21,283 nt of DNA from Elsinoe ampelina (taxonomy: Eukaryota), in assembly GCA_010093995.1 (NCBI GenBank), contig ML992523.1, forward strand, positions 82,266-103,548. The letters are read 5' to 3'. Below, one piece after another: positions 544-21,283 of the stretch (positions within the stretch are counted from its first letter, which is position 1; every line of letters starts with the position of its first letter). The position numbers were made by a program, and so were the translations under genes. The notes under the pieces were generated by a model. It searched no databases and was not told where the DNA came from. It worked only from the letters and a program-made list of their open reading frames with translations.

Positions 544-569
544 TAGTATAACTATTAGAGCAAGGTCGG
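544..569 (+). repeat. hAT left terminal inverted repeat
   Basis: TAGTATAACTATTAGAGCAAGGTCGG versus the reverse complement of the right end, TAGTATAACTATTAGGGCGGAGTTAG. The first 15 bp are identical and the 6 differences are all transitions. Confidence 0.9.
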
Positions 570-579
570 CCCCTTTAGG

Positions 580-810
580 TTTAGTACTATACTAGAGTTT
601 AGGTTAGCCTCTAGCTAGCGTAGTGCCGCTAAGAGCTTAGTAGTACTAGTACTAGCTCCGTACTATAGCTATAATAGCACTATACTAGTACTAGGTATAG
701 GTTAAGTTATATATATTCTAGACGTAGTATAGTACTAGGTTAGGTCGGTAGATAAGTAGTATAGTACTATTAAGTCCTTAGTGTACTTTTACTAGCACTA
801 TACTAGAGTT
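580..810. repeat. hAT left subterminal array of short TAGTAC/TAGCAC/GTGCC-type motifs
   Basis: Dense TAGTACTA, TAGCACTA and TAGTGCCG copies in both orientations just inside the TIR. hAT elements are known to carry subterminal transposase-binding repeats. Confidence 0.6.
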
Positions 811-2027
811 ACTATTCTTATAGTAAATTCTTATAGTAACTACTATGTTCTATAACTCTTATTACTTTTCTGCTCTAAATACTTAAAGTTATAGTAGGTA
901 AAGAATACTAGAGAGAAGCAAAAGTTATTAATTATTAACTCTTATATATAATTATAACCTAATAGTAATTTATAGAAGATTAACCTAATTAATATTATCT
1001 ATATAACTCTTATAAGTCTATTTTATATACTTAGCTAGTAAGCTATATACTACCTAGAACTAATACCTTATTATCTTATTATCTACTTGATCTAGAGAAT
1101 ATTCTATCCTTAGTAAGTTTACCCTTATATAAATTATAACTCTTAACTAGTAAACTAAAGTACTAAAGCTATTAGGTAGAGTCTAAGACTAGAATAATTA
1201 GTTCTAGGTAGTTTAGCCTTTCTACTAACTTATAGTACAGTTGCGGATTGCCTTAATACTATTAGATTACTAGTTAATAGTAAGTATAAGGCTATCTAGG
1301 GCCTTAATCTTTGCCTAAAGGTTGTTAATAAATTTATAGTAAGTAATATTAGCCTAACGAATAATAGAGAGGCAAGTAGTAGATATAGTAGTAGATTTAC
1401 TTAAATTCTAGCAACTATTAGTATAAGTTATACTATAGCGACGTAAAGGTATACTAGATAGTTATTTAAATGTTTCTAAGGAGAGAAAGAAGTAACTTAG
1501 CTAATAATCTACTTATATCTCTTAGTATAATAATAGCTATTGTTTAATAATAGCTATTATTAGTATTGTTGTTTTTTTATAATAGATAATAGCTATTATT
1601 TATATTATTGTTCTTATAATAGGTAATACTAGATATATATACCTTTTAGTTACTATTTCTTCTTCTTTCTCTTAAACCTCTCTTTCTTATTGTTTAATAC
1701 TTTCTTCTATAATATCTTCTTCTTATACTTAACTCTACCTCGACCTAGTAGATCTAATTCTCTTTTAGCCTTATAAGATAACTCCTAGTAACTACGCTAG
1801 GCCCTTATACCTACGCTAGTTTAAAGCCTATATCTACTATATAACTCTTATATATCTTAACTTTAATAATAACTACAAAATCTAAGCTAAATATATCTAT
1901 AATAACTATAGAGGTTCGGTACTTCGCTATAAAGCCTACTATACTTATAATACTCCTTATAACTTTATAGGTGTTTCTAATCTAATCTTTCTTTATAATC
2001 TAATAAATATTAGTATAATATCTTATA

Positions 2028-2228
2028 TGTTAAGAATATAGCTCTCTCTAGATAATTAGGCTATAAAGTTATATAACCTTAAGTTATATAATACTAAGGC
2101 CTAGAGATTTATAGCTATTCTTTCTTCTAGTAGATAGACTCCTTAATTAATTAACTTGTCTATTACCTAATTAGTATATAATTAGTTCTATATAATATTC
2201 CACCCCTAAACGTGCCTTCTACTTAATA
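2028..2228 (+). repeat. copia 5' LTR (201 bp)
   Basis: TGTTAAGAATATAG...CTACTTAATA; direct repeat of 7185-7385 with 12 differences by manual count, all transitions. Confidence 0.97.
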
Positions 2229-2242
2229 GGTTATAAGCCTAG
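2229..2242 (+). promoter_or_regulatory. copia primer-binding site (half-tRNA-iMet type)
   Basis: GGTTATAAGCCTAG lies immediately after the 5' LTR and de-RIPs to GGTTATGRGCCCAG, the internal tRNA-iMet PBS type used by copia-like elements. Confidence 0.8.
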
Positions 2243-2344
2243 AGCTATAGTATAAGTATAGGATTGTATATACTATAGTTAAGTATCTACGTTATTAAAA
2301 TTAGGCCGGATTTTATTAGTATTCTCCTCTATTTCTCCTCTATT

Positions 2345-5300
2345 ATCTTAATCTTAGATAGATTAGTAAAGGTAGTATAAAGCGTAAAAGACTAGTTACT
2401 TAGTACATTAAGTAGAATATATTAAGACGTCTACTATAGATTTATTTCTATAATTGTATAATAGCTGCTATTTATTAGCTATAAACAACTAAACAATATT
2501 TGTTTTATTACTGTTTTCTCTCTTAAGATTAAGCACCTATTAATCTTATTAACAATTATCTAGTTAAGACTAGTATAAAGATCTTAATACCTAGAAGAAT
2601 TAACTTAAAGGTTATTAACCTCCGGATCTCGACCTTTATCTATTTATTTACTAAGTTCTTTTCTACTCTAGAACTTATCTTTAGCTATAGAAGACAATAA
2701 TACCTAATTAAAGTAGCTAGTACCTATACTCTCTAAAGATAACTATAAGAAGTAGTTCTAATAAATAGAGCTCTAGCTTATATTAAAGAAGGTGTTATAG
2801 ACTCTTACTTCCCTTACTAAACTATTAGTAATAACTCTAGAGTTATTATTAACTTCCTTATTTAACTCCTAGTATTTTCCTCTATTAGTAGAGAAGAATA
2901 GTACTACCCTTTACTAGATCTATAGATATATCTCTAAGAGAGATTAAGAGATAATTTAGAAATAGTAGTAGGCTAAGCTAGCTTAGGAGAAGCTAAAGAG
3001 CAAGTATATAAAGTAGATAGGTATATAGGTAAGACAACTTTAGAAAGAATTTATAATATATACTATAAGTAATAATATAACTATCTTAGATACCTAGTTA
3101 TACCTAACTATATTAGGAAGGAGAATTAATAGGTCTTTAGAGATTAAGTAATACTCCTTACTAATAACAAGAATTTAGAGACTACTTAGTACTCTTTTAG
3201 CTTTATAGTTAACTATAAGAGATGCCTTAGATACTTAACTCTACCTTAGTATAGATAAGATCTATAACATTCTTAAAGAAAAGAAAGTATAAAAGGAAGA
3301 AGGGGAATCTACTATATTTATAAGAGGTAGACTATAACAGAGAACTAGTAGAAGCTTAAATTATATATGTATCTTATATAAGGAACCTAGATACTCTATA
3401 TTAAGGTGTCCTTATCTCTAATAAGCTAAGAAGTATATCTAGCTATCCTATAGAGTTACTAAAAGGAGTAGCCCTATAAGAAGATAGTTACCTAAGTGCT
3501 AGAAACTACTTAAACTTATAAGATAGCTTACTAAGAGAATAGACTCCCTTAAAGTAGCTAAATTAAGAAGGAGAGGTAAAGCCTATTTAGCTACTAAGAG
3601 TAGTTTATTATTAACATCTCTATCTCTACTACTAGAAGTTCTACCTAGGAATAAAGAGCTTAAAACTATAGGTTCTACATTAGAGGTTTAAGGTAAGCTT
3701 CTACATTATTAGTAGATACTTAACTCTAGAGTATCTAACTATATAATAGATAAGCTAACTCTCTTTAGGGGCCTATTAAGTAAGATTTACACTTAATAGA
3801 TCTAGGTTAGAGAGAGTTACTTTTAGTTATAGTTAATAGGAACTATAGTTATTAAGACTAAGAAGGGAGATAAGATAAAGGTATAGGCTCTTTATATACC
3901 TAATCTTAGTATTAATTTAGTCTCCTATTATAAGCTATACTTAGATTTAGGCGTTTCTAGAGTTTTTAATTTAAATTCTTTTCTTGTCCTTAATTAGTAG
4001 AAGTAACTATTACTTAAAGCTAGAATTTAAAGGGGGGTATATATTATCTAATTCCTCTTTAAGTAATTAGCTAATTAAAAGCTGTATTTTAGATCTAAGC
4101 CTAGCTTAATTCTAGATCTAGCTAATTAGGATTTAGTATTCCTTACTACCTAGCTTATAATTATATTATAGACTAAGTATACACATCTAACCTAGGATAA
4201 GTAATAAGAGAATCTTATTAACTTAGGACCTAATAACTCTAAGATAGAGTATTAGCTCTAGTATAGGAAATTTACTTACCTTAGAATTAAGAAGCTTAAG
4301 AATCTTTATAAAGTTATAACCCTTAAGAAACCTATTAACCTAAACTATAATCTATCTATTCTATATAAGGTCTGTTCCCTTACTAAGATAAGGAATAGAA
4401 GAGGTAAAACCTTATAGAGAAGACTAGAGGTTCTTTAGCTTATCTATACTAATATCTATAGCCTAATTAAAGTAAGTAGAGAAGGATTTAGATACTTCCT
4501 AGAGCTTATAGATAGCTACTTAAGAATAATATAGATTAGTCTACTTAAGATAAGAGATAAAGCTCTATAAAGGCTTATTAAGTAGAAGCTAAGAGTTAAG
4601 AAGGAAAGTAATACTAAGGTTAAGGTTACTAGATTAGATAATACTAGTAAACTTAATAAGATCCTAAAGTAGTAGAAGCGCTAAGAAGGTATCTATTATA
4701 TAACTACTAAGTTATATAATTTAATTTAGAATAGACTAGTAAAGAAAGGTATCTAAACCTTAGAGAATAGTATAAGAGCAATACTTAAGGACTTAAGGAT
4801 ACTAAATAAGTTCTAGCCTAAAGTAGTTTAGGTAGATATATATCTAAGGAATAGAATAGTAACTAGACCTATAATTAATAATAAGTAAGTTATACCTATT
4901 AAGGCCTATATAGGCATTAAGCTATTAGTTAATTATATTAGGGTCTAGGGCTATAAGGTATATACCTATATAAACCTAAAGTCCCTTCCTATATATAGAA
5001 GAAAAGACAAGCTTATAGATAGAAGAAAAGTAGAAGTATTCCTTAGCTATATAAATAGAACTAACAGGATATACAAGATATAGGCACCTAATAGAAAGGT
5101 AGTAATTATATTACTAAATATTAAATTCTCTAAGTTTAAGAAAGGTAGTAATATTAATCTTAGTATTAGAATTAATACTATAAGTAATTAAGCACTAGTT
5201 AGGAGACTAGTTAGTAGACTAACTTAGATTTAGACTAAGGTTAGATCTAGGATAGACTAACTAAATTAGCCTATTTAGAATAAAGCACCTATAGGGAGAA

Positions 5301-7155
5301 TCTTTTTATATATTAAGATCCTAAGAGTTAACCCTATTAACATTATAGATTTCTAACATAGAAAAGAGCTAATAGTTTAATCTTTACTAACTAACTATAT
5401 AAGTTAATTACTTAAGAGATTAAGAGATAATAACTCTAATAATAAAGGCTCTAAAGCTAAGTACTATAGAGCTTTTATTACTAAGTATATTAATTAGCAA
5501 GATAAGGTTAATAAGATTACTATAATAGCCTCTATTAAGTAATATGTCCTAATCCTAAGGGACTACTATAAGGCTATTACTAATCTAGTATAGGAAAGTA
5601 AATAGTAGAAAGTAATTAATATAGAGCTTAATACTCTATACTTAAATAATACATAGGAAGAGGTTATTCCTCTAAAGGGATCTAACTTAGTAATATCTAA
5701 ATAGGTCTTTAATGTTAAGTATAACATAGATAGCTCTATTAAAAAGTTTAAGGTTAGACTAGTTACTAGAGGCTTCTTATAGAAGTATAGTATTAACTAT
5801 AAAGACATATTTATACTAATAGTTAGAGTAGACATACTTAGACTATTCTTTACTATTATATATATACTTAACCTTAAGTATTATTAGGTAGATGTTAATA
5901 ATACCTTTATAGAATTCTTTCTTTATAAAAAGATCTATATAAGGCTACTACCTAGACTAAAGATTAGTTCTAGATTTGCCTTCCGGATTCTAAGGAGCTT
6001 ATATAGACTTAAGTAAGCTACTAGAGACTAGAACTAGTACTATATCTCTAAGCTCCTAAAGCTAAGCTTTACTTAAAGTAAAGTAGACCTTTATCTTCTT
6101 ATATACTATAATAAGAAGATTATTCTTTTAGTTTATATTAATAATATACTATTTGTAGCATAAAGTAAAAAGAACATCTAGTAGTTTAAGCAAGAACTTA
6201 GTAAGATCTTTAAGATTAAAGATCTTAGCAAGGTTAATAAAGTTCTTAGAGTTAAAGTTATAAGAGATAGATAATAAAGCACCTTAAGACTTAATTAAAC
6301 CTACTATATAGATAATATGCTATAGAGGCTTAATATAACCTCTAATAAGGTTACTTTAACAAAGTAGCTAATAGATAATAAGCTCCCTTAAAGAGCTTAG
6401 GAAAATAATATAAGGTTTAGTAGAACTAAGTACTTATATACTATTAGAAGCTAGATATACCTTAGTACCCTAATAAGGCTAGATACTACCTTTGCCTTAG
6501 GAAGGCTAAGTTAGTTTATAGCGGATCTAATAGATAGTTATACTATTAAGATAAAGAGGATATTAAGATATATTAGATTAACTAAAGATCTTAGTATTAT
6601 ATTTAGAAGGAATAGGAATAAGACTCTTAAGAGATACTCTAATTTAGACTATACCTTAGATAAGTTAGATAGGGTCTCTATCCTTAGATATGTCTTTATA
6701 CTTATAAGTAGTTCTATTAGCTAGATAAGTAGGAAGTAGAAGTCTGTTTTAACCTCTACTATAGAGGCTAAATATATAGTAATATACTCTTATATAAAGA
6801 GATTATAGTTCCTGTCTTAGTTACTAAGAGATATAGGCTATTATAAGATAGTTAGGCAATTACTATAGAGGCTAACTATAAGAGAATCTTAGAAAGTAAT
6901 AATAAGATTACTCTTTACTACTAGGATTAATAGTAATAACTAAGTAGCTCTTTTACTTATAAAAGAGCTATATACTTATAAAAGGGTAAAGTACATTAAT
7001 ATTGCTTACTACTACGTTAGGAGGCTATAGAGAGACTAGAGGATTTAAGTAGAGTTTATAAGAATAGTAGACATAGTAGCTAATAGGTTAACTAAGCTAT
7101 TATAAGGTTAGATCTTTATAAGGTTTATAAAGTAACTTAGCTTATTATTAACCTA
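2345..7155 (+). pseudogene. copia gag-pol polyprotein, single frame, many RIP stops (ends approximate)
   Basis: All motifs lie in one frame: zinc knuckle C-I-L-C-K-E-P-G-H-S-I-L-R-C (3368-3409), protease WILDSGASNHM (3713), integrase LIHTDICGP (4439), RT KFKARLVARGFSQKYGIDY (5744) and VYVDD (6131), RNase H GYSDSDYA (6632), KQKSVSTSTTEAEY, KHIDIAYH, DMVADGLTKP (about 7070). Confidence 0.95.
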
Positions 7156-7184
7156 ATAGCTTATCTATAGGAGCTAAGTAGGAG

Positions 7185-7385
7185 TATTAAGAATATAGCT
7201 CTCTCTAGATAATTAGGCTATAAAGTTATATAACCTTAAGTTATATAATACTAAGGCCTAGGGATTTATAGCTGTTCTTTCTTCTAGTAGATAGACTTCT
7301 TAATTAATTAACTCGTCTATTACCTAATTAGTGTACGATTAGTTCTATATAATATTTCACCTCTAAACGTACCTTCTACTTAACA
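7185..7385 (+). repeat. copia 3' LTR (201 bp)
   Basis: TATTAAGAATATAG...CTACTTAACA, preceded by the purine-rich GGAGCTAAGTAGGAG (degenerate PPT). Confidence 0.97.
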
Positions 7386-8146
7386 TTATAGACTAATAAT
7401 ATCTTTAACCTAATTAATATATAGTGCACTATTAATTGTCTTATTCTTAGTAGAAGAGTAGATCTACTCTTACTCTTTACTATACGCTATAACGTTAAAC
7501 GTAAGTAGAAGGAGTTAGATTATATCGATAATAGTAATAATAGTATTTCTTCTAATAACTAATCTAATTAAAGTAGCATAGTTAAAGCGTTAGCGAGCTA
7601 ATAGCTTTAGATAGTTATTAATAATATAGACTTATACTTTATAAAGACTTAATTACGTTACCTCTTCCTATAAGTAACTAAAATTAACTATAATAATAGT
7701 ATATATAAGCTCTTAAAGTAGAAGTGTTTATATTACCTCTAGCTATACTAGTAGTTATATTACTACCCTAGGTAGTACTATTAATACTAGCGGTAGAAGT
7801 ATCTCCCTCGTTGTTCTCTTTACTATTAGTATTATTCTAGAAAGTAACTTAACTATTATTAGGCTTAAATCTAGTAAGAAAGTTAGAAGTATAATAAGGT
7901 AGATATTAGTAATAGCATAGAAAGTAGCGTTAGTAATAAGTTAGCTAAGGTCGTAGGTACTATAGTAGAGATAGTTATTAAGGTTAATAATAAGAGAAGT
8001 AGCGCGGAGATTAGTTATAGCTTTAGCCTTTATATTATAGTTAATCTATATAATTTTCTTATTAACGTTTTTATAAGTAAATCTAGTATAACTAACGTAG
8101 ATATAAATATAGTTATATTAAAGATACTAGCGAGTAAGGGAATAAG

Positions 8147-8609
8147 TATTACGAACTAGTAGGATAGCTAGAGCGTAGGGATATTAGAACTAATTAAACT
8201 ACTAGAGTTATTACGTAACCTAGCCCGACGTTTATCTAGTTCTTTATCTTCTCTAGTAGCTCTACTTTAGAGACTATAGAGCGCGTAGGTTACTAGTAGA
8301 TATATACTCTATACTACCCCTAGCTTTCGCTACGGAGTATATAGAGTATATAGAGTATATAATAGAGAATATATATATATAAGAATAGTCCTTACCTTAT
8401 ATAAGTACTATAGTTAACCTTGTCTAGATAGCGAACACTAGTATTACTAAGGCTAGCCTTTATAATACTATTTAATTGTACTTTATTATCTATAAGACAT
8501 ATCTTCTCTAACTCTTACCTTAGTACTATACTACTATAGAAGTAGAACTACCTCGTTCTTAGCTTAGCTTAGACTACTAGCGTAGGCTATGTTTAGACAG
8601 TTCGTAACA
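8147..8609 (+). repeat. gypsy 5' LTR (463 bp)
   Basis: TATTACGAACT...AGTTCGTAACA (terminal inverted ends); direct repeat of 14699-15161 with about 41 differences by manual count, all transitions, no indels. Confidence 0.97.
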
Positions 8610-8626
8610 TTTTAACTACCCTTACT

Positions 8627-10708
8627 ATAGTATAGTATACTACGAGGTTAATAAGTAACTCTTACTTTAAGTTACTATTAGTATCTTTAATCGCTAGTAA
8701 GCTAGGAAGACTTACTATTAACGATATATCTACTACTAGTTTAACCTCGGGCAAATATAGAAGGTCTCTTAGTATAGAGGAGAGACGAAGTAAGCCTAAG
8801 CTAGAGGTAGAACTCTTCTATAGGGACTATACCTACTTAAGGCGCTTTCTTGTTTAACTTAAAGCCTTCTTTACTCTAGAGAGAGATAAATACGCTAACG
8901 ATATAGTAAAGGTTCTCTATACTAGAATATACCTTAAAGGCGCTACCTTCGAGTAGTTTAAGCCTTATATAAGTAGCTACCTAGACGGATAACTAAGTCT
9001 AGATATAAAGGCTATCTTTAAGAGTTTTAGTATCTTCTAAGCGAAGATTAGGTAAGTCTTTAATATATCTAATAAGGAACGTATTACTATAATAAAGATT
9101 CGACAACTACGATAACGTAGGTCTATAGCCTAGTACTATTTCTAGTTCTAATAACTCGTAATATACCTAGACTAGAATAATAGTACTAAATATTTAGTAT
9201 TCTACTAAGGACTAAGCGACTTAGTTAAAGACTAAATAATACCTAAGCTGTCTAATAGCCTCTAAGAACTAGTAGATACTATAATTACTATTAATAACTA
9301 ACTTTATAAACAACATATAGAACGTTATAGAGAATATAAGGTAAATACTAGATATATACGTTCCTCCCGGAACTATAGAGACTCTATAGAACTTAACGCT
9401 ATACGCGAAGGTTGCCCCTTATAGGTAAAGGGCTAAAGTTACGAAGGAAAGTTTCTTAGTAGAAAAGAGAGAGAGAAATATAGATAAGATAACTTATATT
9501 TTAAGTATAAAAGACTTAGGTATTAGGCTAGGGACTACTAGTAAAGGGCGCTAGCTAATAGATTATATATAATAGTTGCCGGGCTAGTAGAGAAAAAGGC
9601 TAATACTACTATAGAAGACCTAATAACCTTTAGTATAGGTAAGGAAATATAAAAGAAGTCTACGACGACTTAAGAGGTAATAGAATTCTCTCTAGATGTT
9701 ATACTTAATATCTCTACGACTAATAGTAAACAATAAAGCTAACACGTAATACTATTATAGATAGCATATTATAATAACTCTTATTATATTTACTTATTAG
9801 ACAAGTAGGGATCTAGTTAGTTCCTATATAAGCTACCTAAGCGTAGGTAACTAACGAGATAGCTAGACTAGGAACCTAACCTAGAAGAGCTCTCTATAAT
9901 TAGTAGTAACATTAACTAACCTTAGAAGGTAGTTAGCAATAATTACTAATATACAATTATTAAGACAAAGTATTAGAATATAAGTACTATATAACAATAT
10001 AGTAGCCTTACCTTTAGCTCTTATAGTATACTATAAGGAAAGGTATATTATATATCGCTCTAGAAATGTATAAATCTAGATTATAAATAGTACTACTCTA
10101 TCTACTTATATAATGTACTTAGAGAAGACACTATTAGTCTCGAATATACTATAGACTTCTTAGTAATTAAGATAGGTAGTACTATTCCCTATAGCTAAGT
10201 ACGAGAGTATACTCGATGTAGCCTTACTAACTATAACTATATAGAGAGCAATAGCGATAAAGAGAAATATAACAAGAAATATACCGAATAACTATAGTAT
10301 AATAATATAAATAAGGACTTATCTAACAACGACGATATACTACTACTAGGTAGACGACTTAAAGTATACCTTATAGAGATATAGAGGAATTATATAATAA
10401 TATACACCTACTACTAGAATAGGATATAATAAGATAAATCTATATAACTTACTTTTATCTTTAATACTAACACCTAGCTATGCCTAGAGGGAATAGTTAT
10501 ACTAGTATAGGTATATAACACTACTTAGTATAACTAGTAGAGAATTATTAGACTTTATAGTTATTAAGGAACGTAAGTACTAGAAGTTTACCTTACTATA
10601 TTAAGTAGTAATAAGACACGACTTGCCTAATAGATATAGTACTAATAGTAGATACGTATAGAAAGGGATTAGCTACTTATCTAGGGAGCTACAATAATAA
10701 AAAACTAG
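8627..10708 (+). pseudogene. gag: chromovirus Gag with long C-terminal extension (start approximate)
   Basis: One frame: LFxGD..HLRRFLVQLKAFF (about 8810), YLKGAAFEWF, FYQGLSD.VKD, GDPMELDA (9377), zinc knuckle CFKCGRLGHQARDC (9497-9538), HxxLSWTACYDDSCxxHLSDKQGSGWFP (9743-9826); ends AAA AAC TAG. Confidence 0.9.
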
Positions 10709-10740
10709 TAAGTTATTACCTAATAAGGTAAGATAATAAC
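10699..10740 (+). promoter_or_regulatory. -1 programmed ribosomal frameshift signal
   Basis: Heptamer A AAA AAC (10699-10705) is correctly phased in the gag frame, followed by TAG. After a 6-nt spacer comes a potential stem GTTATTACC...GGTAAGATAATAAC. Pol lies in the -1 frame. Confidence 0.85.
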
Positions 10741-13700
10741 ACTAGCTAAAGCCTTAGTATAATAAAGATTTATATATTAAATTACTTTATACTAGAAGTC
10801 TAGATATAAGAAAATAAGGTAAGAGTAATAATAGATTTAGGAGCTAACTATAGCTATATCTCTATAATAGTTACTAATTAGCTTAAACCTTATTAATATT
10901 AGAAGGAGTTACTTTACCTACTTACTATAGCGGATAGAACCTCTATAGGAAAGGACAGGAAAGTTACTTAGGAACTATAAAACGTTATAATCTAAATCGA
11001 AATATATATAGAAAGACAATTAATCGATATAGTTAACATATAGTATAATATAGTACTTAGTATAGACTAGCTTTAATAATATAATCTAGACGTAGACTAG
11101 ATTAAAGAAATACTTAAATTCCCTAAGTATAATTATAGAATATAGAGAGTATAATTAGCTCCGCGAATACTAACTATAAGAATAGTATAAGTATAACTAA
11201 TAGTTAGAGCTATCGCTAGCGTAAGTAATTAAGTACTTCCGCTAGAATATAAAGACTTCGAGGACTTATTTAAAGAAAGAGAAGGTATCGTAGCCTTACT
11301 CTAATATAAACTATAGAATTACGAAATACCTTTTAAAGAGAGTAAATCCCTAATACACTATTAAGGTCTTATACTACTATTAAAATAAGAGAAGAATATT
11401 CTTAAGAACTATATTAATAAGTACTTACTTAAAGGATTTATACAACTATTAAAATTACCTATTATGTATAGAGTACTTTTTACACTAAAAAAGGATAGAA
11501 CGTTATAAATATATATTAATTACTAGAAACTTAATATACTTACTAGGAAGAATCGCTATCCCCTACTAAGGATTAATAAACTTTAAGACTAACTACTTAG
11601 AGCTAAATAGTTCACTATAATTAACATTAGAGATGCCTATTATTAAGTATAAATAAAGGAGGGCAAGGAGTAGAAAACAGCTTTTAGGACGTAATAGAGT
11701 CTATATAAGTACCTCGTTATACTCTTTAGGTTAACTAATACTCCTATAACCTTCTAAGAGTTAATTAATAATACTCTATAAGAATACCTTAATAACTTTA
11801 TCTTAGTATATTTAGACAATATTATTATCTTCTTAAAGATGTATAATAAACATATAAGACATATTTATAAAGTGCTACGGAAACTAAAAGAAAAAGACCT
11901 ACTAGTAAAGCTCTCTAAGTATAAGTTTTATAAATATAAGATACAATTTCTAGGCTATATTATATCTACTAATAGTATTAGACCTAATCTAAAGAAGATT
12001 AAGTTAGTAAACAACTAGCTAGAACCTATAATAGTTAAGGAGGTTTAAGCGCTACTAGGATTCTTTAACTACTACTACAAATTTGTTAAAGGATTCTCTA
12101 AGGTAGCTATACTAATATCTAACCTTACAAAAAAGGAAACTAGCTTTGTCTTTAACAAGAAGTATAGGTAGGCCTTTAAGGAGCTAAAGCTTAGACTTAT
12201 AATAGTACCTATCCTAGTACTCTTCGACTTAGACTAATAGGTACTACTAGAGATAGATACCTTAGACTTTATAATAGAAGCGTATCTAGCGTAGAAGAAT
12301 ATAGAAGAATAATACTACCTAATTGTATACTACTTACGAAAAATAACTAGACCTAAACTTAACTACAATATATATAATAAAGAGTTACTTGCGATTATAG
12401 AGGCATTCTATAAATAGAGAGTATACCTAGAAGAGATAACCTTACTAGTATAAGTCTACACCGACTATAAGAACCTTCTATATTAGACAATAACTAAGGT
12501 TCTTAATAGATAATAGGTTCGATAGTTAAAAACACTTATAAGCTATAACTTTTAGATCTACTATATTAAGGGATTAGAGAATAGTAGAGTAGACGCTCTT
12601 AGCTAATAACTAGATTACTTAAAGAATATAACAATAATAGAGGCCTCTATACTAAAGTAGTAAGATAGTGCTTTAGTCTATAAGTACCCGAAGGTAGAGT
12701 AGTTATGTAGCCTTACCTAGGAGCTTATATAAGAATAGAAATAAGAAATTATTTAAATATACTATAATAACCTAACGGTAGAACATAGCGGGATTAATAA
12801 GACTATTAAACTTATTACATAAAACTACTTATAGAAAGAACTCCGAAACAATATTAAGACGTATATCGCCGCCTACGATATATGCTGCAAGTCTAAGCAC
12901 TTATAATACAAGCTATATAGCCTATTATAACCTCTACTACCACTAGACAAACTATAGTAATTAGTTATAATAGACTTTATAGGACCTCTACTACTATTAG
13001 AAGAACCTCTTATAGGTGTAAAGTATAATAGTATTCTAGTCCTAGTAGATAGGTTTATAAAGTATTACTACTTCGTACTATATAAGATAATAGTAACTAC
13101 CGAGGATATAGCCTTTACCTTCCTCTAAACAATTGTTTTATAATATAAAGTACTATAAGACCTAATAACTAATAGGGATAAGCTATTTACATTACAATTC
13201 TAGTAATTATTTATAGACTTACTAGGAGTTAAATATAAGCTATTAACCTCCTTTTATCTATAAACGAATAGATAAACTAAATAGGCAAATAAAGTACTAG
13301 AGTAGTACCTATAATACTACCTAAACTATAAGTAAGACTTATAGGTAACACTATTACTACTCGCGGAGCTTGCTATTAATAATAGAAAGTTAGTAAATAG
13401 AATTTTACTATTCTATATAAACTATAGAATATACCTAGATCTATACTATAATACACTCGGAATTAAGCTAATATCTAAGAATATTAACATATTAGTAGCT
13501 AACATTAAGAAACTATATAACTAGCTATACTACGATATAGTATTTATATTATAAAGAATAGTAGAGTTTACTAATTAGAAGAGAATTACGGGACTAATTC
13601 TATAGAAGGGAGAGAAAGTTTACCTCCTTAGTAAAAACATTAAAACGAAATAACTAAGTAAGAAACTTAACTATACTAAACTAGAACCCTTTAAGATTCT

Positions 13701-14099
13701 AGAAAAGAAAAATAAGAACGTATATAAACTAGAACTACCGAGACATATAAGAATCTATCTAGTCTTTTATATATCGCTACTAGAGAAAGTACTATAGAAT
13801 ACTATACCTAGACCTATCGAACTAGATAAAGAAATATAGGAGCTATAGTACAAGATTAAAAGAGTTTTACGCTATAAACTTATAAAAGAAAAACGCTACT
13901 ATCTTATTTACTAGAAAGGACATTAGTATAGTAAAGTAATATAGGAACTAGAGAAGTACCTTACCTTATAAGTAATTCTAGATTACTAGATTAAGAACCT
14001 ATCCTAAGTAAACTAACTAGATAGACCTAGCACTTCTAATACTAAATAAAAACAAGAACGCCTAAGGAGAATTACTTAGCTAATAGAAGCACCTTAATC
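10699..14099 (+). pseudogene. pol: chromovirus Pol (protease, RT, RNase H, integrase, chromodomain) in the -1 frame relative to gag (3' end approximate)
   Basis: One frame: AMIDSGAN (Asp at 10834), IDIRDAYYQ, YLDD (11809), LETDASD (about 12247), NYDIHDKELLAI, VYTDHKNL, SVTMDFI (12961), ITDRDKLF, FHPQTDGQTER, GPF (13684), IHPVFHISLLE, chromodomain YEIERVL...YYLIHWKG...ATWEP (13849-13950). Confidence 0.95.
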
Positions 14100-14624
14100 G
14101 TTACTAAATAGAGAACTCTAGTTAGAGTTAGGCATAAATAATTACTAATTCTATAGTAGGATAGAATCTACTGACAATAATATTTCCTTCTACTCTAGAA
14201 CTTAAATATAAGTCTCCTCTAGAGAGATTACTTTCTCCGCCTTATTCTCTAATTTCTATATCTCTTCGCGTAGGTAAAGCTTATTACCTATAGCTCTTTA
14301 ATAAGCCTCTTTTGCCTTTTTATAAGCCTCTTTAGCTTCCTTTCTAGTAGCCTTAGCTATAACTAATTCCTTTCGTAAATAAATATACTTAGACTAGAGA
14401 CGCTACTATTCCGATTTTGTTACTTAAATATTATAACCTAAGTAGTTACTTATAATATACTAGCTATAGATACCTAACCGAATATAGACCTTATAATCTA
14501 GCCTCTTCGATTTATAATAAGAATAAGCCTATAGTATATTAGTTCTAAATAGTTTAATAAACTCTAAGAGATTCTTTCGTATAGATATACTAGATTTACT
14601 ATGCCTTTAACAACTAGGAGGCAT
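14076..14624 (-). pseudogene. Antisense accessory ORF of the chromovirus (about 180 aa): six-Cys Zn-cluster-like domain plus coiled coil
   Basis: ATG at 14624. Six TAT codons (TGT after de-RIP) are spaced C-x2-C-x6-C-x8-C-x2-C-x7-C (14525-14433), followed by VTKSEWQRL and an E/K/A/R-rich helical region. Confidence 0.75.
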
Positions 14625-14698
14625 ATTTAGTATATAGCGTATATAGATAAGGAGAGATACTTACTTATTAGAACAACTCGATTAAAGAAGAAAAGTAA

Positions 14699-15161
14699 TG
14701 TTATAAACTAGTAAGATAGCTAAAGCATAGAGACGTTAGGACTAATTAAACTACTAGGGTTATTACGTAACCTAGTCTAACGTTTACCTAGTTCTCTATC
14801 TTCTCTAGTAGCTCTACTCTAGAGACTATAGAGTATATAGGTTACTAGTAGACATATACTTTATACTGCCCTTAGCTTTCGCTACGGAGTATATAGAGTA
14901 TATAGAGTACGTAATAGAGGATATATATATATAGAAATAGTCCTTACCTTATATAAGTACTATAGTTAACCTTGTCTAGATAGTAAATACTAGTATTACT
15001 AAGGCTAGCCTTTATAATACTATCTAATTGTACTTTATTATCTATAAGACATACCTTCTCTAACTCTTACCTTAGTGCTATACTACTATAGAAGTAGAAC
15101 TACCTCGTTCTTAGCTTAGCTTAAACTACTAGCGTAAGCTATATTTAGACAGTTTATAACA
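14699..15161 (+). repeat. gypsy 3' LTR (463 bp)
   Basis: TGTTATAAACT...AGTTTATAACA, followed by the TSD ATAAG. Confidence 0.97.
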
Positions 15162-15292: not shown

Positions 15293-17885
15293 TTACTTAG
15301 AGGCTATTAACTAGATATGCTTAGAATACTAGCCTCTAACCTTAGTAATAGTATATAGTAGATCTTTGTCCTTATTATACTCTTCTTTCTCGTTAATCTC
15401 TTTATTACTTAAACTATAGATAGTAATATCTCTAAAGTTGTTACTTATACTATCTATTCCGCTATTAGTATTATTATTAGTAGTAGTAAAACTGTCTATC
15501 TTAGCTAATTAAATGTTTTAAAGATTGTTTTTTACTAGCTTAGAGACTATAATTTATTAAATTATCTACGGAAGTAGTCTATACCTTTAATTGCTAATAA
15601 TATTCTTTACTATATTAAAAACACATTTAATACTTACGCTAGCGATTAGTATTATAAGAACATTATAAGTAATATAAGCTAGTTATAGAAATAAGTATTT
15701 ATTTTCTTTCTACTAAGAAAGAATATTAAATTCTAATATTTCCTATATAGGCGAAGTTCTAAGGTAATTCTTCTCTTCTATCCTTATTATATAGATATTA
15801 CTCTACCCTTACAAAAGTATATTATCTTAGCTAGATACTAGAGGTATAAAGCTACTCTTTATATTTAATAAGGAAGGCTTCTTAAACTAGTAAGTAATAG
15901 ATAAGGCTAGTAGAGGAGGTAGGAGAGTAGTTTAAGAAGAATAGTTATTATTATAGTAATTAAGGTAGTTAAGAAACTATTTATAGTAAAGTAATTTAAA
16001 ATATAGTTCCTACGAAGTATACTTATATATACTAAGTTTCTAAGTTAGATTTAAGATTATACTATAATTAAATAGAAAACCTTAACCTCTACTTGTTTAC
16101 TTATAATACTTAAAAAGCTTAGTATAACTAGCTTTTACTACATTTTATATAACTAATAGCTAGTCTAAGTTATTATTCTCTTTCTAAGTAGACTTAACTA
16201 CGTTAAGGAAGTTAAAAAGAGTATTATACATAAGCTATATATATTATACTAATAGTATATAAGACTAACTTAGCTAGTAAGTTATATTCTTAAAATTCTC
16301 TAGTATTTAGATAATAATCTTTAGATATACCTATTCGGTATAGCCGAGGTAAAGGCGTATTATATCTATATAATTAATAGATACTATATCTTAATTAGCT
16401 AGTACTTTGTTAGTTTAGAGCTTATATATAATTACAATCTCCGTGTTAAGCTATTTATTAATAATTAGTTAAAGTTTAATAGCTCGCTTATATATATTAT
16501 ATATCGAGTTCTAATAGGTATAAATGTCTCTAACGACTAAGAGTTATTTATAAGGAGGTAGATGTACTTAAAGGGATTTAAAGTGTTAGTAGCGTTAAGA
16601 GAATTAGTTAATTATAATACAAATTATATAGAGCTTTAAAATTAGTTAAAAAACTATAAGAAAGAACTATAAGAAATATAACTTACTTTATAAAGGGAAT
16701 TTAGAACTAATAGAGTTATTTAAATATTATAGAGATACTACTTCTCGAGCTTATTAGCTTTCTTATTGTCCTTAGTAGTTTCTAGCTATAGGGCTTAAAT
16801 AATATTTTATATAATAAGATTAATTACATAGGCTAGATATAGAATTATATTCTTAATAGAGGACTAGTATATACTCTTTTTCTTAAGACCTTATTATACT
16901 TTAGATTATAGAGTGTTATTGTTACTTATATTATCTACTATAATAGCGAGAAGATATATATTAATCTTTTTTTTATTTAGAACTCTTAGTAGTTCTATGC
17001 TAAGTATAACTCTAGTATACTATCTACTAATTAGTATAAAATCTAGTAGACACTTACGTACTTACTAGTTATTATTAATATAGTATACCTTTATAGCTAT
17101 AAAACTTAGATAGTTATTCGTAGACTAGCTATCTAGCGTAATTAAAACTTTTATCTAACTACTAAGATTAGTAAGAAGATTAGACTAAATGTCCTTATAG
17201 TGCTCTTTTAATAGCTTTAAGGCCCGTATCTAACCTAGAATATTAGTATATAGCTAGAGGAAATATATAAATTAGAGAAAGAAGAAATTATTAACTATTT
17301 AGAATAACTAATTACAATTAATAAGGACTTTAATAAGCTCTTTTTTAAATTGTTCTAGGGAGAATTATAGTATATAGAATATAGTACTAGTAGTATTTAC
17401 TTTTAATTATATTAGAGCTATCTAAGCTACTAATTATTTATAGCTAGGAGATTTTATATTCTAGTAGCTTTAGCATCTAAGATGTTTTATTAGGTGTTTA
17501 TTACTAATTAAGTTCGTTATTAGGTGTTATAAAGCTCTACTATAGTAGAGACAATATATAAGAGGTATTCTATTAGTAAGCTTAGCACCTTTATTAAAGT
17601 TAGCCTAAATAACTCTATAGCGAGTTATAGAATTCTAGTTTAGTAGGTTTCGTATTTCGCTAACTCTTAATTCGCTACCTATTAATATTATAGACTACTA
17701 TATTTTCTAGGCTTATATAGCTAGCTATTCTTTAAGTAGTATATCTAGTTAGTAGGGCAAATAGCTAATAATTTTAATAGTTTTATAGAATTAAGTAGAG
17801 GATAAATTATTCTAGTAATTAATATAGAACTCTTTAAGCTTATAGAAGAGAGGTAGTAGTAGCGTAATAACTTTTAAAAGTATCT
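15293..17885 (-). pseudogene. hAT transposase, RIP-degenerate, one intron at 16686-16634 (ends approximate)
   Basis: BED finger CLHC...HLIKHL (17553-17480), TLDGWS (Asp at 17133), VDNASNN (16935), CLAHVINL, RDICTRWNSTYDM (about 16530-16495), and dimerisation domain WWKENE..FPQLA.IA.DVLAIPIASVSVExVFN (15715-15610), then an acidic tail. A 53-bp GTAAGT...CTAAT...AAG intron exactly accounts for the frame change. Confidence 0.93.
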
Positions 17886-18099
17886 ATAGTTAAGAATTAA
17901 CTAAGTCTTTATTAAATACTAACATTTTAAGAGTAGAGATATAGAATATTACTAGCTATATAACAAGAAGTAGAAGACTATAAGAATACTCTATAAGAAT
18001 TTATTAGCTACTCTTAATTTGTAGATTAAAAAAATTTTAATAGTATAAAACTAAAAAGCTACTAAAACTATAGTTTAATTTTCCTAACTTAAGATTAAT

Positions 18100-19371
18100 C
18101 TATTTATTCTTATCTATATTATTCTTACTCTTACTTTTCTTATTATTATTATTACTCTTATCTATTGCCTTATTATTATCTTTATCCTAATTCTCTTTAT
18201 TAGAATTATTAAAGTCTCTAGTAGTAACTACCTTATAGTATATTTTAGCTACTTCCTTAGTCTTATACTTATTAGGTTCCTTATTAAGAAGGTTCTTAAT
18301 CTTAGAGTTATTCTTAACTTCTTCTTTAACCTTATTATTACTATACTTAATATAGTAATTATTAGATTTAAGTAAAATATTATTATTCTTATACTTAAAT
18401 TCTAGTTTAGGAGTAGATTTATATTTGCTTTAATAGATTAGTATATAACTATAAGAAATAACTATAAGAAATAATATATATCTAATTATCTACCTATACT
18501 ACTTAGAGTTTAGTAGGTGTTATATTCTTAATAAACTTCTTAAACTTAGCTTAGTTACTATTGTTATAGTTACTAGTATTATATAGTAAATTAACGCTAT
18601 TATAGTAGATCTTATAGGTCTATTTCTTAAGAATTCTACTAGTGCTAAGAAGATATTTTACTTAGTAATTTAGAAATATATTTGTCTTATTATAGAGTGC
18701 CTTCTTTATATAATTAGTAAAGAGTTACTTATAGTAAAGAAGAGTATTAGCTTTATAAATACTACTTTATTTTTAGTAGATAGATATAAACTTATCCTTT
18801 AACTATTCCCCTATATAGAATTAGTAAATATACTATAAGAATATACTATAAGAAATATACTACTCTACTAGGTATAATAGTAAGTCTCCGCTATCTTCTT
18901 ATATACTATATTAAAGGTAGCTTCTTTTTCCTTATCGAATATTACTTAGAATTCCTTAGAGTTTTTAAGTTTTACCTTAAGTATATATTTTATAGAGCAA
19001 TTAGTATTACTAGTAGTAGTAAGAGCTTTCTCCTCTATACTAGCTTATATAGTATAATCTCTTTACTAAATAGCTTACTAGGTATTACTAAGCTATACTT
19101 TCTACTATAGAATTCTAAGAGAGTAGCTATAGTAAAGAGTTCTAGTATTCTAAGAGCGATTTTTAATCTAGTATTTAATCTTATTAGCCTCGGAATTAAA
19201 ACCCTATAATCTAGTTAGTATTTAACTATAAGAAGCATCTATAAGAATTACTTCTATTATAGTAAGAATTACTTTCTCTTCCTTAGTTATTTCTTTAGTC
19301 TTAATTACTAGAGTATTAGTTATCTCTTTCTCTTTACTAAAGGTTTACTAATCTATAGAATTAGTAGACAT
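18100..19371 (-). pseudogene. Spliced accessory gene of unknown function inside the hAT, with acidic (D/E-rich after de-RIP) C-terminus
   Basis: ATG at 19371; a 120-bp first exon; intron 19251-19204 (GTAATT...TACTAAC...TAG); intron 18860-18811 (GTATAT...TACTAAT...TAG); probable intron about 18493-18428; AAT/AAG/GAT-rich tail ending at TAG 18102-18100. The frames of the middle exons were not fully resolved. Confidence 0.6.
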
Positions 19372-19747
19372 TATAGATTAAGAATTAGTAGTAATTTATA
19401 AGAGAAGGTAGAATATTAAGTATAATAGAGAGTAAGATATAAGATATAAGTTTTATAAGGAAAAGATAAGAAGAGAAGAATTTAGTATTCCTTATATATA
19501 TAGTAAATAGAGTAGCTAGAAATATAAGTAATAATAGGTATTAATTCTATTATTATACTAATATAAAGTTATTAATATTATTAATATAAAGTTGTTATAG
19601 TAGAGAATAATAATACAAAATTCATATTCTATATACTATTATAAATTCCTTAATAAGGCTTAATATCTTACTCTTAGTATTTTTGCCTTACTCTTCTTTA
19701 CCTTTATAAATAAATTTTAATAATTAATTTAACAAATTTACGTAGCT
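19372..19747. promoter_or_regulatory. Putative bidirectional promoter between the accessory gene (-) and the H3-like gene (+)
   Basis: A 376-bp gap between divergent start codons, with TATA-like boxes (about 19493 and 19640) and pyrimidine-rich leaders on each coding strand. AT-richness weakens the TATA evidence. Confidence 0.45.
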
Positions 19748-20329
19748 ATAGCTCGTAAGAAGTAAGTAACACCTCTAAAAAGAGTAAAGCTAAGAAAGTA
19801 AGACACTAAGAAAACTACTACTAAAAAGCCTACTATAGGTAGTTATATAATAAAATTTAAACTAGTATTAACTAGACAAATTTGCTAGGTAAAGAGCTAT
19901 AGGTTTAAGCTAGATAGTTAGTTTCTTATAGTAAATTCTTATAGTCTTATATCTAATATAGTATAGCTATTACTCTCTAAGAGATTTATCGCTACTAGAA
20001 GACAACTAAACTTCTTATATATAAGCTTCTTTTCTCCTATATTATTTATAACATTACGTAAGATATTAAGTTAACACTTATAAGTAGAGATTTATACTTT
20101 ATGCTAGATACTATTAAGTGTCTCTAGGAAGTAAGTAAGGTAATACTAGTAGAATATTTCGAAGGTATATTAACTATATATTTAGAATATATAATACCTT
20201 ATACTAATAACTATAGTAGACTATAATCTTAACGCTATCTATACTAAGCGTTATACTATTATATAGAAAGACTCTTAGCTTACTAGGAAATATTATAATA
20301 AGTACTACCTACTTACTTTCTCTAATTAG
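19748..20329 (+). pseudogene. Histone H3-like gene captured in the hAT (3 exons: 19748-19916, 19967-20164, 20220-20329)
   Basis: De-RIP translation: MARKKQ...KPRKQ...[75 protein letters not shown]|DCNLNAIHAKRxTIMQKDSQLARK, collinear with the histone H3 fold. Both introns have GT, a CTAAT branch site and TAG, and both restore the frame. Confidence 0.93.
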
Positions 20330-20439
20330 TAAGATCTCTTCTCTATAATACTATAAGAATAGACTATAAGAAATAGGTAAGTGTATTTTTACATAGACTA
20401 GACTATTAAATTTTCTTTCTATAGACTTATTATAATGCT

Positions 20440-20749: not shown

Positions 20750-20775
20750 CTAACTCCGCCCTAATAGTTATACTA
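20750..20775 (-). repeat. hAT right terminal inverted repeat
   Basis: CTAACTCCGCCCTAATAGTTATACTA, followed directly by the TSD AGTATTAG. Confidence 0.9.
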
Positions 20776-21283
20776 AGTATTAGATATAGAGATATTCTAT
20801 CTCTACTCTTTAAGATAAATAGCTATTACTAGTTTATAGTTCTTAAATTTATCTCCTCTATTAGAGATAAAGATAAATAAAAGCTTATTATAGACTATTT
20901 TATTCCTTATATAAATAAGTTTAATTACTACTAGTATATTACTCTTAAGGAAGAGAATAGTAATAAACTTATACTTACTTTTACTATATATTACAAAGAG
21001 AAAGTATTTATAGCTCTTACTTAACTATAGGTTAATAAGACTAATAAGGTCTAGATAGAGCTTATTTAGTAAGTACTTTAGTATATCTCTTAGTTCTCTT
21101 AATACTACTCTCTATGTCTTTAATATAGTATATAGTTTATAGTAGCTAAGATCTAATATTTAAAGTTCTTCTAATCTAATAGCTTAACTTTTAGTAAGAG
21201 AAAGAATAGTATTACTAACATAGCTTAACCTCTAGTACTATCTTTCTAATATTAGCTTTTAAGTAGTTATAATAGCTAGATTT
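20776..21283 (-). pseudogene. Ty1/copia retrotransposon (host element): integrase core, first two catalytic Asp regions, RIP-degenerate
   Basis: The minus strand de-RIPs to L-D-K-L-H-L-D-L-I-G-P-I, G-H-K-Y-F-L-F-V-T and I-S-D-G-G-G-E-F. It joins 1-543 across the AGTATTAG duplication. Confidence 0.85.

What the first reader, a model, noticed from the sequence alone, without database searches (positions are those of the whole stretch)
19748..19916. H3-like N-tail keeps K4 but has lost the K9 ARKS silencing site
Seen: the tail reads A-R-K-K-Q-[A/V]-T-P-[P/L]-K-R..., so K4 and PRKQ are kept but position 9 is Pro/Leu and no ARKS motif is present. The K27 context is ambiguous ([A/T]-K-K-P), and the tail is longer than in H3. 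Knowledge: H3K9me3 by DIM-5 directs HP1 binding and DNA methylation of RIPed transposons in filamentous fungi. Inference: nucleosomes containing this variant could resist heterochromatin formation, a plausible counter-defence.
Basis: inference. Interest (0 to 1): 0.7.

Follow-up and report, generated by a model that had tools for sequence, protein, structure and literature searches.

The report
Dead transposon histone lacking silencing lysine
This is a mutation-killed copy of a known kind of fungal jumping gene that carries its own histone H3-like gene, whose tail really lacks the lysine that fungi methylate to silence repeats, which fits but does not prove an anti-silencing role.

Summary
The stretch is exon 1 of a RIP-destroyed histone H3-like (H3L) gene in a 7.85-kb hAT transposon (544-20775, TIRs, 8-bp TSD, 22 close copies). 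It belongs to the published Pyrenophora H3L-hAT family (same two introns, same intron motif); this scan has noted the element before elsewhere in this genome. The K9 loss is real: RIP cannot remove a lysine, and no reversal rebuilds the DIM-5 site in any of four families. Intact relatives mostly lack it too (24 of 27). But K9 is lost no more often than R8, S10 or A15, K4 is kept in only 9 of 22, and every copy here was RIP-killed, so targeted loss is not shown. Not found in my paper searches: the H3L gene sits head-to-head with a helical partner gene in hAT, Helitron and PIF/Harbinger contexts, with dispersed 12-13-bp-spaced motif doublets (8 here, 0 expected), an architecture like plant VANC anti-silencing. 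Ectopic H3 K9L/K9R de-silences Neurospora, so counter-defence is plausible (about 0.4) and testable.

The parts
19748..19916 (+). H3L exon 1: N-terminal tail to G44 equivalent (the finding); RIP-broken, no K9, no DIM-5 site
19917..19966 (+). H3L intron 1 (50 nt, phase 1 in the T45 codon), holds a motif doublet
   Evidence: same position and doublet type in Pyrenophora H3L
19967..20164 (+). H3L exon 2: alphaN, alpha1, loop 1 (+5 residues), alpha2; 45 of 60 host-H3 residues RIP-compatible; Q68 replaced by S/P
20165..20219 (+). H3L intron 2 (55 nt, phase 1 in the D106 codon)
   Evidence: same position in Pyrenophora H3L
20220..20329 (+). H3L exon 3: loop 2, alpha3 and short extension; 21 of 29 host-H3 residues RIP-compatible; end uncertain because TAG may be a RIP product
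18883..19095 (-). Conserved exon of the head-to-head partner gene (three-helix basic protein, no known family); full extent not defined
   Evidence: HMM of 8 intact partners, iE 7.5e-6
15534..17623 (-). RIP-broken hAT transposase (approximate limits, mapped from an uninterrupted copy)
   Evidence: PF05699 above cut-off in two copies; tblastn to intact L131 transposase E 4e-21
544..560 (+). Left terminal inverted repeat, preceded by 8-bp target-site duplication (536-543)
20759..20775 (-). Right terminal inverted repeat, followed by identical 8-bp TSD (20776-20783)
815..836 (-). 13-bp-spaced motif doublet CTATAAGAA x2 (1 of 8)
16654..16675 (+). motif doublet (2 of 8)
17978..17999 (+). motif doublet (3 of 8)
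18449..18470 (+). motif doublet (4 of 8)
18833..18854 (+). motif doublet (5 of 8)
19226..19247 (+). motif doublet between partner and H3L (6 of 8)
19923..19944 (-). motif doublet inside H3L intron 1 (7 of 8)
20351..20372 (+). motif doublet just downstream of H3L (8 of 8)
2028..7385 (.). Nested later insertion with terminal direct repeats, TG...CA ends and 5-bp TSD (LTR-retrotransposon-like); not part of the hAT
8147..15160 (.). Second nested insertion with terminal direct repeats and short TSD (LTR-retrotransposon-like); not part of the hAT

Best explanation
Shown: a dead copy of an old, transposon-resident H3 variant gene (Pyrenophora H3L family) in a hAT element that multiplied recently and was then destroyed by RIP; its tail had no K9 and no DIM-5 site before RIP; intact relatives are kept by purifying selection and travel with a head-to-head partner gene and dispersed motif doublets. 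Inferred: while the element was alive, H3L paired with host H4 and entered nucleosomes, the partner protein bound the doublets in introns and spacers and so concentrated H3L or open chromatin on its own element, and the resulting nucleosomes were poor substrates for DIM-5/HP1/DIM-2, delaying silencing locally while sparing the host. The tail need only stay basic and lack a working R8-G12 site, which would explain drift rather than one fixed substitution. The defence does not stop RID-type RIP. The identity is about 0.97 certain; the confidence given is for the mechanism.
For: Element: TIR, 8-bp TSD, PF05699. Family: both introns and an intron-1 doublet match Pyrenophora H3L and not host H3 or CenH3. 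K9: RIP-reversal tests in four families; R-K-[ST]-T-G in 3 of 27 intact tails. Selection: dN/dS 0.18 and 0.19 in the fold, 0.21-0.46 in the tail, for the closest intact pairs; DNA-, H4- and H3-H3-contact residues (numbers recalled: R63-F67, R83, H113, K115, R116, T118, D123, L126, A127) are RIP-compatible. Module: a transposase gene lies next to H3L in 10 of 15 loci of 2 kb or more (7 hAT, 2 Helitron, 1 PIF); partner homologues in all three contexts; doublets 8 vs 0 expected, at 2 or more places in 12 of 18 intact loci and 0 of 8 host gene loci; the same 13-bp TGTGATAA doublet in a hAT (L131) and a PIF (L148) locus that share the partner type. Precedents: PMC3248561 (ectopic K9L/K9R de-silences; R8-G12 needed by DIM-5), PMC5735166 (VANC binds motifs in non-coding TE DNA). 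Host has pre-SET, chromo-shadow, three DNA-methylase and CXC-preSET loci.
Against: K9 is not depleted below background and is lost no more than R8, S10, A15, K4, K27 or K36 (all Fisher p>0.15). L144, in the same weak clade as the window's gene, keeps ARKSTGG. All family-A copies examined are RIP-dead, so the gene did not protect against RIP, although one RIP route needs DIM-5/HP1 (10.1101/115501, abstract). Family B shows no doublets. Nothing here shows that the partner binds DNA or histone, or that H3L enters chromatin. C110 and L130 of the H3-H3 interface are changed.
Confidence: 0.4

Rival explanations
1. H3L is a functional element-encoded histone, but its job lies in the fold, not in lacking K9: unstable or CenH3-like nucleosomes that ease transposase access, or steer insertion. 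The tail drifted because its marks are irrelevant.
For: Fold more constrained than tail; K9 loss indistinguishable from loss at other tail positions; variable loop 1 (+0 to +5 among the four families) and S at 68 as in host CenH3.
Against: F84 is kept, unlike host CenH3 W; the tail is still under purifying selection (dN/dS 0.21-0.46) and keeps the G-G-K-x-P-x-K block in 18 of 27 while the adjacent R8-S10 is mostly lost (partly circular, the block is the anchor).
Confidence: 0.3
2. H3L acts genome-wide as a dominant poison or decoy: mixed into bulk chromatin it lowers H3K9me3 and DNA methylation everywhere, with no targeting by the partner.
For: One ectopic copy of K9, S10, T11, G12 or K14 mutant H3 lowers methylation globally in Neurospora (PMC3248561, passages); tens of copies per genome.
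Against: Costly to the host and helps rival elements; does not explain the conserved partner and element-specific doublets.
Confidence: 0.15
3. Functionless passenger: a captured host H3 transcript decaying inside a hAT, as read by Dhillon et al. 2019; the tail changes are decay.
For: All copies here are dead; Dhillon et al. found only RIP-inactivated copies in six genomes (PMC6710886).
Against: Own two introns conserved over very divergent elements; open frames, splice sites and dN/dS about 0.2 in intact relatives; four families here share introns and fold but not tails; shared partner gene.
Confidence: 0.07

Closest known systems
H3L gene of the 5.6-kb hAT 'transduplication' element of Pyrenophora tritici-repentis (Manning et al. 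2013, PMC3538342)
   Same: hAT with TIRs, transposase, central ORF and H3L; both introns at the same codons; 13-bp-spaced TTATCACAG doublet in intron 1; lengthened tail with K4 and no ARKS at 9; shared fold signatures (S68, YFE-D-C-N, KDSQLAR-YY/YF end).
   Different: Here 7.85 kb, every examined copy RIP-dead, tail sequence unrelated in detail, loop 1 five residues longer, doublet spelled CTATAAGAA. In the passages I read the paper notes tail insertions and possible chromatin effects but not K9, the doublets or other transposon superfamilies.
RIP-inactivated hAT-borne H3-like copies in Mycosphaerellaceae (Dhillon et al. 2019, PMC6710886)
   Same: hAT, 8-bp TSD, tens to hundreds of copies, all killed by RIP, host H3 intact.
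   Different: They read the gene as an intron-less retrocopy of host H3; this gene has two introns of its own, and their '16-aa insertion' equals a 48-nt intron (7 of 22 intact loci have a 48-nt intron 1 plus L149; their Cercospora consensus shows both introns, read by eye). The words tail, lysine and chromatin do not occur in their main text.
VANC anti-silencing system of Arabidopsis VANDAL transposons (Hosaka et al. 2017, PMC5735166)
   Same: Element-encoded accessory protein plus short motifs repeated in non-coding parts of the element, motif differing between related elements.
   Different: VANC binding and demethylation are shown; here both are inferred. No histone gene in VANDAL as far as the abstract and section read say; no homology to VANC was tested.
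Canonical fungal H3 and CenH3 (host genes L031, L036/L032)
   Same: Histone fold; 66 of 89 host-H3 residues RIP-compatible; S68 and long loop 1 recall CenH3.
   Different: Different intron positions from both; tail without K9; F84 kept; host has its own intact single H3-H4 pair and CenH3.

Membership tests
hAT DNA transposon | Short terminal inverted repeats | tested here: met
   544-560 and 20759-20775, 16 of 17 matching
hAT DNA transposon | 8-bp target-site duplication | tested here: met
   identical 8-mers at the window copy; matching 8-mers in most full-length copies shown
hAT DNA transposon | hAT transposase with C-terminal dimerisation domain | tested here: met
   PF05699 25.8 and 23.9 bits (cut-off 21.4) in two sister copies
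Pyrenophora-type H3L-hAT element | H3-like gene inside the TIRs | tested here: met
Pyrenophora-type H3L-hAT element | Introns in the T45 and D106 codons | tested here: met
   versus Figure S3 text
Pyrenophora-type H3L-hAT element | Central ORF between transposase and H3L | tested here: inconclusive
   a partner gene lies there; I did not compare it with the Pyrenophora central ORF itself
Pyrenophora-type H3L-hAT element | Grouping with Pyrenophora/Pyrenochaeta H3L proteins in a tree | tested here: inconclusive
   clade support 74/93, below threshold; bootstrap not settled
Canonical histone H3 | Invariant tail with ARKS at K9 and K27 | tested here: not met
CenH3/CENP-A | Long loop 1 and non-Q at 68 (criteria recalled) | tested here: met
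   +5 residues, S/P at 68
CenH3/CENP-A | W at 84 as in the host CenH3; orthology with host CenH3 (introns, tree) | tested here: not met
   F84 kept; host CenH3 has other introns and does not group with it (weak tree)
CenH3/CENP-A | Centromeric localisation | not testable with these tools
   needs ChIP or imaging
VANC-like sequence-specific anti-silencing system | Element-specific motifs repeated in non-coding parts of the element | tested here: met
   (not seen in family B)
VANC-like sequence-specific anti-silencing system | Element-encoded protein binds the motifs and removes silencing marks | not testable with these tools
   partner has no Pfam, PDB or Atlas assignment
DIM-5 substrate | R8-K9-S10-T11-G12 site (PMC3248561) | tested here: not met
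   cannot be rebuilt in families A-D

The most novel reading that the evidence does not exclude
Fungal DNA transposons of at least three superfamilies (hAT, Helitron, PIF/Harbinger) exchange a mobile anti-silencing cassette made of their own histone H3 variant that DIM-5 cannot methylate, a sequence-specific partner protein, and 12-13-bp-spaced binding doublets sown through the element's introns and spacers, so that the element builds heterochromatin-resistant nucleosomes on itself: a histone-based counterpart of plant VANC.
Probability: 0.3. Interest if true: 0.85.

Novelty: new member of a known kind. Interest (0 to 1): 0.52.

Why it matters
The element class is published, and this copy is dead. 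What matters is the reinterpretation: the gene is not a decaying host retrocopy but an old, selected, transposon-owned histone variant that comes with a partner gene and element-specific DNA doublets and turns up beside three kinds of transposase. If the cassette counters H3K9 methylation, it would answer how DNA transposons persist against heterochromatin in RIP-proficient fungi, would be a transposon-encoded histone used as counter-defence (none turned up in the searches), and would offer a natural tool for sequence-specific de-silencing. Intact versions exist (Pyrenophora H3L, L131, L145, L149), and the Neurospora hph reactivation assay makes the test direct.

Tried and rejected
RIP artefact as the cause of K9 loss: rejected. 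CenH3 orthology: rejected on introns and F84. Retrocopy of host H3: rejected on introns. Specific selection against K at 9: not supported. A third intron in 19839-19888: no donor/acceptor pair with good consensus keeps the frame, but not excluded. RNA: no RNA holder listed and four guessed-RNA runs gave no laid contigs; no evidence either way. Word-indexed homologue searches: one search found nothing, one search was swamped by canonical H3 (only P0187, P0194 new), one search gave 5 hits. Intron pattern in viral contigs: 0. Partner identity: no PDB sequence hit, no Pfam family over cut-off, Atlas best 0.88 with low recognition, Foldseek none, VIA best Z 7.1 on generic helical hairpins; these do not exclude a known fold. 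H3L-H4-partner complex prediction was not run, so binding is open. The exon-3 part was out of register and was redone; the alignment held a wrong L131 segment and was redone with A4; the anchor for P0026 fell on a second motif (A at 9), the first gives R. Two un-RIPed hAT-domain loci of the host (L159, L160) have no H3L, partner or 12-13-bp doublets, a control of only two. Paper searches listed no study of H3L tails, of H3L beside Helitron or PIF transposases, or of the doublets; most subscription papers are not in the library, and 19 of 31 supplements of PMC3538342 were not searched.

Full report
Observation. The window is AT-rich (19-35% GC) with strong RIP indices throughout. The finding, 19748-19916, is exon 1 of an H3-like gene. 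A DNA search of the own genome gave 22 places at 91-100% identity and 18 more at 67-80% among 40 scored. In 19 aligned copies 158 of 166 variable columns are C/T or A/G. Allowing every C>T and G>A reversal, residue 9 can only be P or L, lysine is possible only at 3, 4, 10, 13, 16, 20, 21, 25, 26, 35, 48, 53, and no R-K-[ST]-T-G can be rebuilt; one A-R-K-T is formally possible but needs a change in a context mutated at 3% to be fixed in all 19 copies. A lysine codon stays lysine under RIP, so the loss is older than RIP. PRKQ is a reconstruction (CTA and TAA in 19 of 19). No copy has ATG and each has at least two stops in the tail.

What it is. The gene has two introns, 19917-19966 in the T45 codon and 20165-20219 in the D106 codon; host H3 has introns at R8 and A114 and host CenH3 elsewhere. 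Of host H3 residues, 45 of 60 in exon 2 and 21 of 29 in exon 3 are RIP-compatible, a lenient measure. The gene lies in a hAT element at 544-20775 with TIRs and an identical 8-bp TSD, split by two LTR-like insertions; the hAT dimerisation domain passes the Pfam cut-off in two sister copies. Five full-length copies differ by 6.4-7.6% transitions but 0.03-0.14% transversions: a recent burst, then RIP. Three further H3L families (B, C, D) share both introns and the fold but have different tails; none can have K9 or the DIM-5 site (12, 8 and 5 copies tested).

Known relatives. Manning et al. 2013 (PMC3538342; passages, supplement search and Figure S3 text) describe a 5.6-kb hAT with transposase, central ORF and an intact, EST-supported H3L. 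Its sequence has the same two introns, a TTATCACAG doublet 13 bp apart in intron 1, K4, T at 9 and Q at 27 (read by eye). Dhillon et al. 2019 (PMC6710886; parts 1-4 of 7, passages, first part of supplement 2) describe RIP-killed hAT-borne H3-like copies in six Mycosphaerellaceae as intron-less retrocopies; their Cercospora consensus shows both introns by eye. The window's gene is therefore a new, dead member of a published kind. Earlier notes of this scan reached the same identification on other copies (after I had found both papers).

Intact homologues. A pattern built on the T45 intron found 22 metagenome loci, all divergent H3-like genes with GC 34-51%; a second intron near D106 was called in 15 of 22, is apparent in 3, absent in 1 and untestable in 3. 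The pattern demands conserved KPG and VALREI, so it favours conserved folds, and the organisms are unnamed. With five proteins this gives 27 tails: K9 kept in 5 of 18 that can be anchored (5 of 22 counting from Met), R8 6 of 18, S10 4 of 18, T11 10 of 18, A15 5 of 18, K4 9 of 22, K27 7 of 15, K36 11 of 27; K14, K18 and K23 are anchors and their retention is circular. A full R-K-[ST]-T-G is in 3 of 27 (L142, L144, and displaced in L150), any ARK[ST] in 7 of 27. Among ten relatives chosen by tree or partner type only L144 keeps the site. K at 9 does not differ from the tail background of 18.5% (p=0.36) nor from the other lysines. dN/dS is 0.18 (L134/L147) and 0.19 (L140/L150) in the fold and 0.46, 0.45 and 0.21 in tails; three more pairs are near saturation. 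The tree places the four local families with Pyrenophora, Pyrenochaeta, L131, L144 and L145 at weak support, 74/93 (35 rows, L133, L143, L146 left out as broken or short). So the gene is selected, the DIM-5 site is dispensable and usually gone, and targeted removal is not shown.

The module. Of 15 loci of 2 kb or more (90 of 138 long ORFs sent to Pfam), six have the hAT domain and a seventh a homologous transposase, two have Helitron helicases, one a PIF/Harbinger DDE domain, five none. A head-to-head partner gene recurs in hAT, Helitron and PIF loci and in the window at 18883-19095 (iE 7.5e-6) and families C and D (family B only weakly). It models as three helices (pLDDT 84) and has no assigned family. 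The window holds eight doublets of CTATAAGAA at 13-bp spacing, none expected, all in the hAT parts and one inside H3L intron 1. A motif-blind test finds 12- or 13-bp doublets at two or more places in 12 of 18 intact loci and 0 of 8 host gene loci; the word differs between elements, but hAT L131 and PIF L148, which share the partner type, share TGTGATAA. That points to the partner rather than the transposase as the binder (inference). I did not define the ends of the Helitron and PIF elements.

Mechanism. [quoted passage not shown] K9L, K9R and K9A are what many H3L tails carry. VANC proteins bind motifs repeated in non-coding parts of their own transposons and remove silencing (PMC5735166; abstract and one section). 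The host has single pre-SET, chromo-shadow and CXC-preSET loci and three DNA-methylase loci (orthology to DIM-5, HP1, SET-7, DIM-2, RID inferred). My best reading (0.4) is a locally targeted, methylation-resistant nucleosome. Against it: the statistics above, the ARKS-keeping relatives, the missing doublets in family B, and the death of every copy by RIP, although one RIP route depends on DIM-5 and HP1 (10.1101/115501, abstract). Rivals: a fold-based role with a drifting tail (0.3), a global poison (0.15), a passenger (0.07). Expression, incorporation and binding are untested.

Verdict. Observation confirmed; interpretation partly supported. The element is a new member of a known kind. The selected, cross-superfamily H3L-partner-doublet cassette was not found in my searches and makes the counter-defence idea directly testable. 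Interest 0.52; novel case 0.3 at 0.85.

Noticed in passing
L140:2305-8383 and L150:29-3019: Two-intron H3L plus partner next to Helitron Rep/helicase genes, convergent in both; the L140 tail has four tandem P-R-x-T-G-G-K repeats, each with R at the K9 place.
   Followed up: partly
L148:247-3504: H3L, partner and TGTGATAA doublets beside a PIF/Harbinger DDE transposase; doublets flank the transposase gene.
   Followed up: partly
L151:6001-10379: H3L with partner-like ORFs next to a 646-aa SAP-domain ORF and a NUMOD3 ORF on an 83-kb contig; possibly a fourth element type (KDZ-like, recalled, untested).
   Followed up: no
L136:1938-2116: H3-like gene whose tail is near canonical but has lost both K9 (A) and K27 (N), lacks the D106 intron and has no transposase in the 3.8-kb contig.
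   Followed up: no
window 544-2027 and 7386-8146: The left 2.3 kb of the hAT shows codon-like periodicity but no Pfam hit or match to the intact loci; may hold further RIP-broken genes that make this element longer than the Pyrenophora one.
   Followed up: partly
window 2028-7385 and 8147-15160: Two LTR-like elements nested in the hAT; the same two families also interrupt other copies (e.g. L058-L060).
   Followed up: no
PMC6710886 supplement 2, Cercospora consensus: By eye: one intron-less and one two-intron H3-like region, and a recurring short motif also inside intron 1.
   Followed up: partly
L159:5440-5898 and L160 near 5250: Two un-RIPed hAT dimerisation-domain frames in the host genome without H3L or partner; possibly domesticated or single-copy.
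   Followed up: partly
P0040, P0222: Canonical H3 predictions that read into introns at the D106 and T45 positions, so these intron sites also occur in some ordinary H3 genes and may point to the donor lineage.
   Followed up: no
family A alignment, 19600-20400: RIP here also hits CpG and CpC (22-26% at variable sites) besides CpA (76%), CpT rarely (3%).
   Followed up: partly
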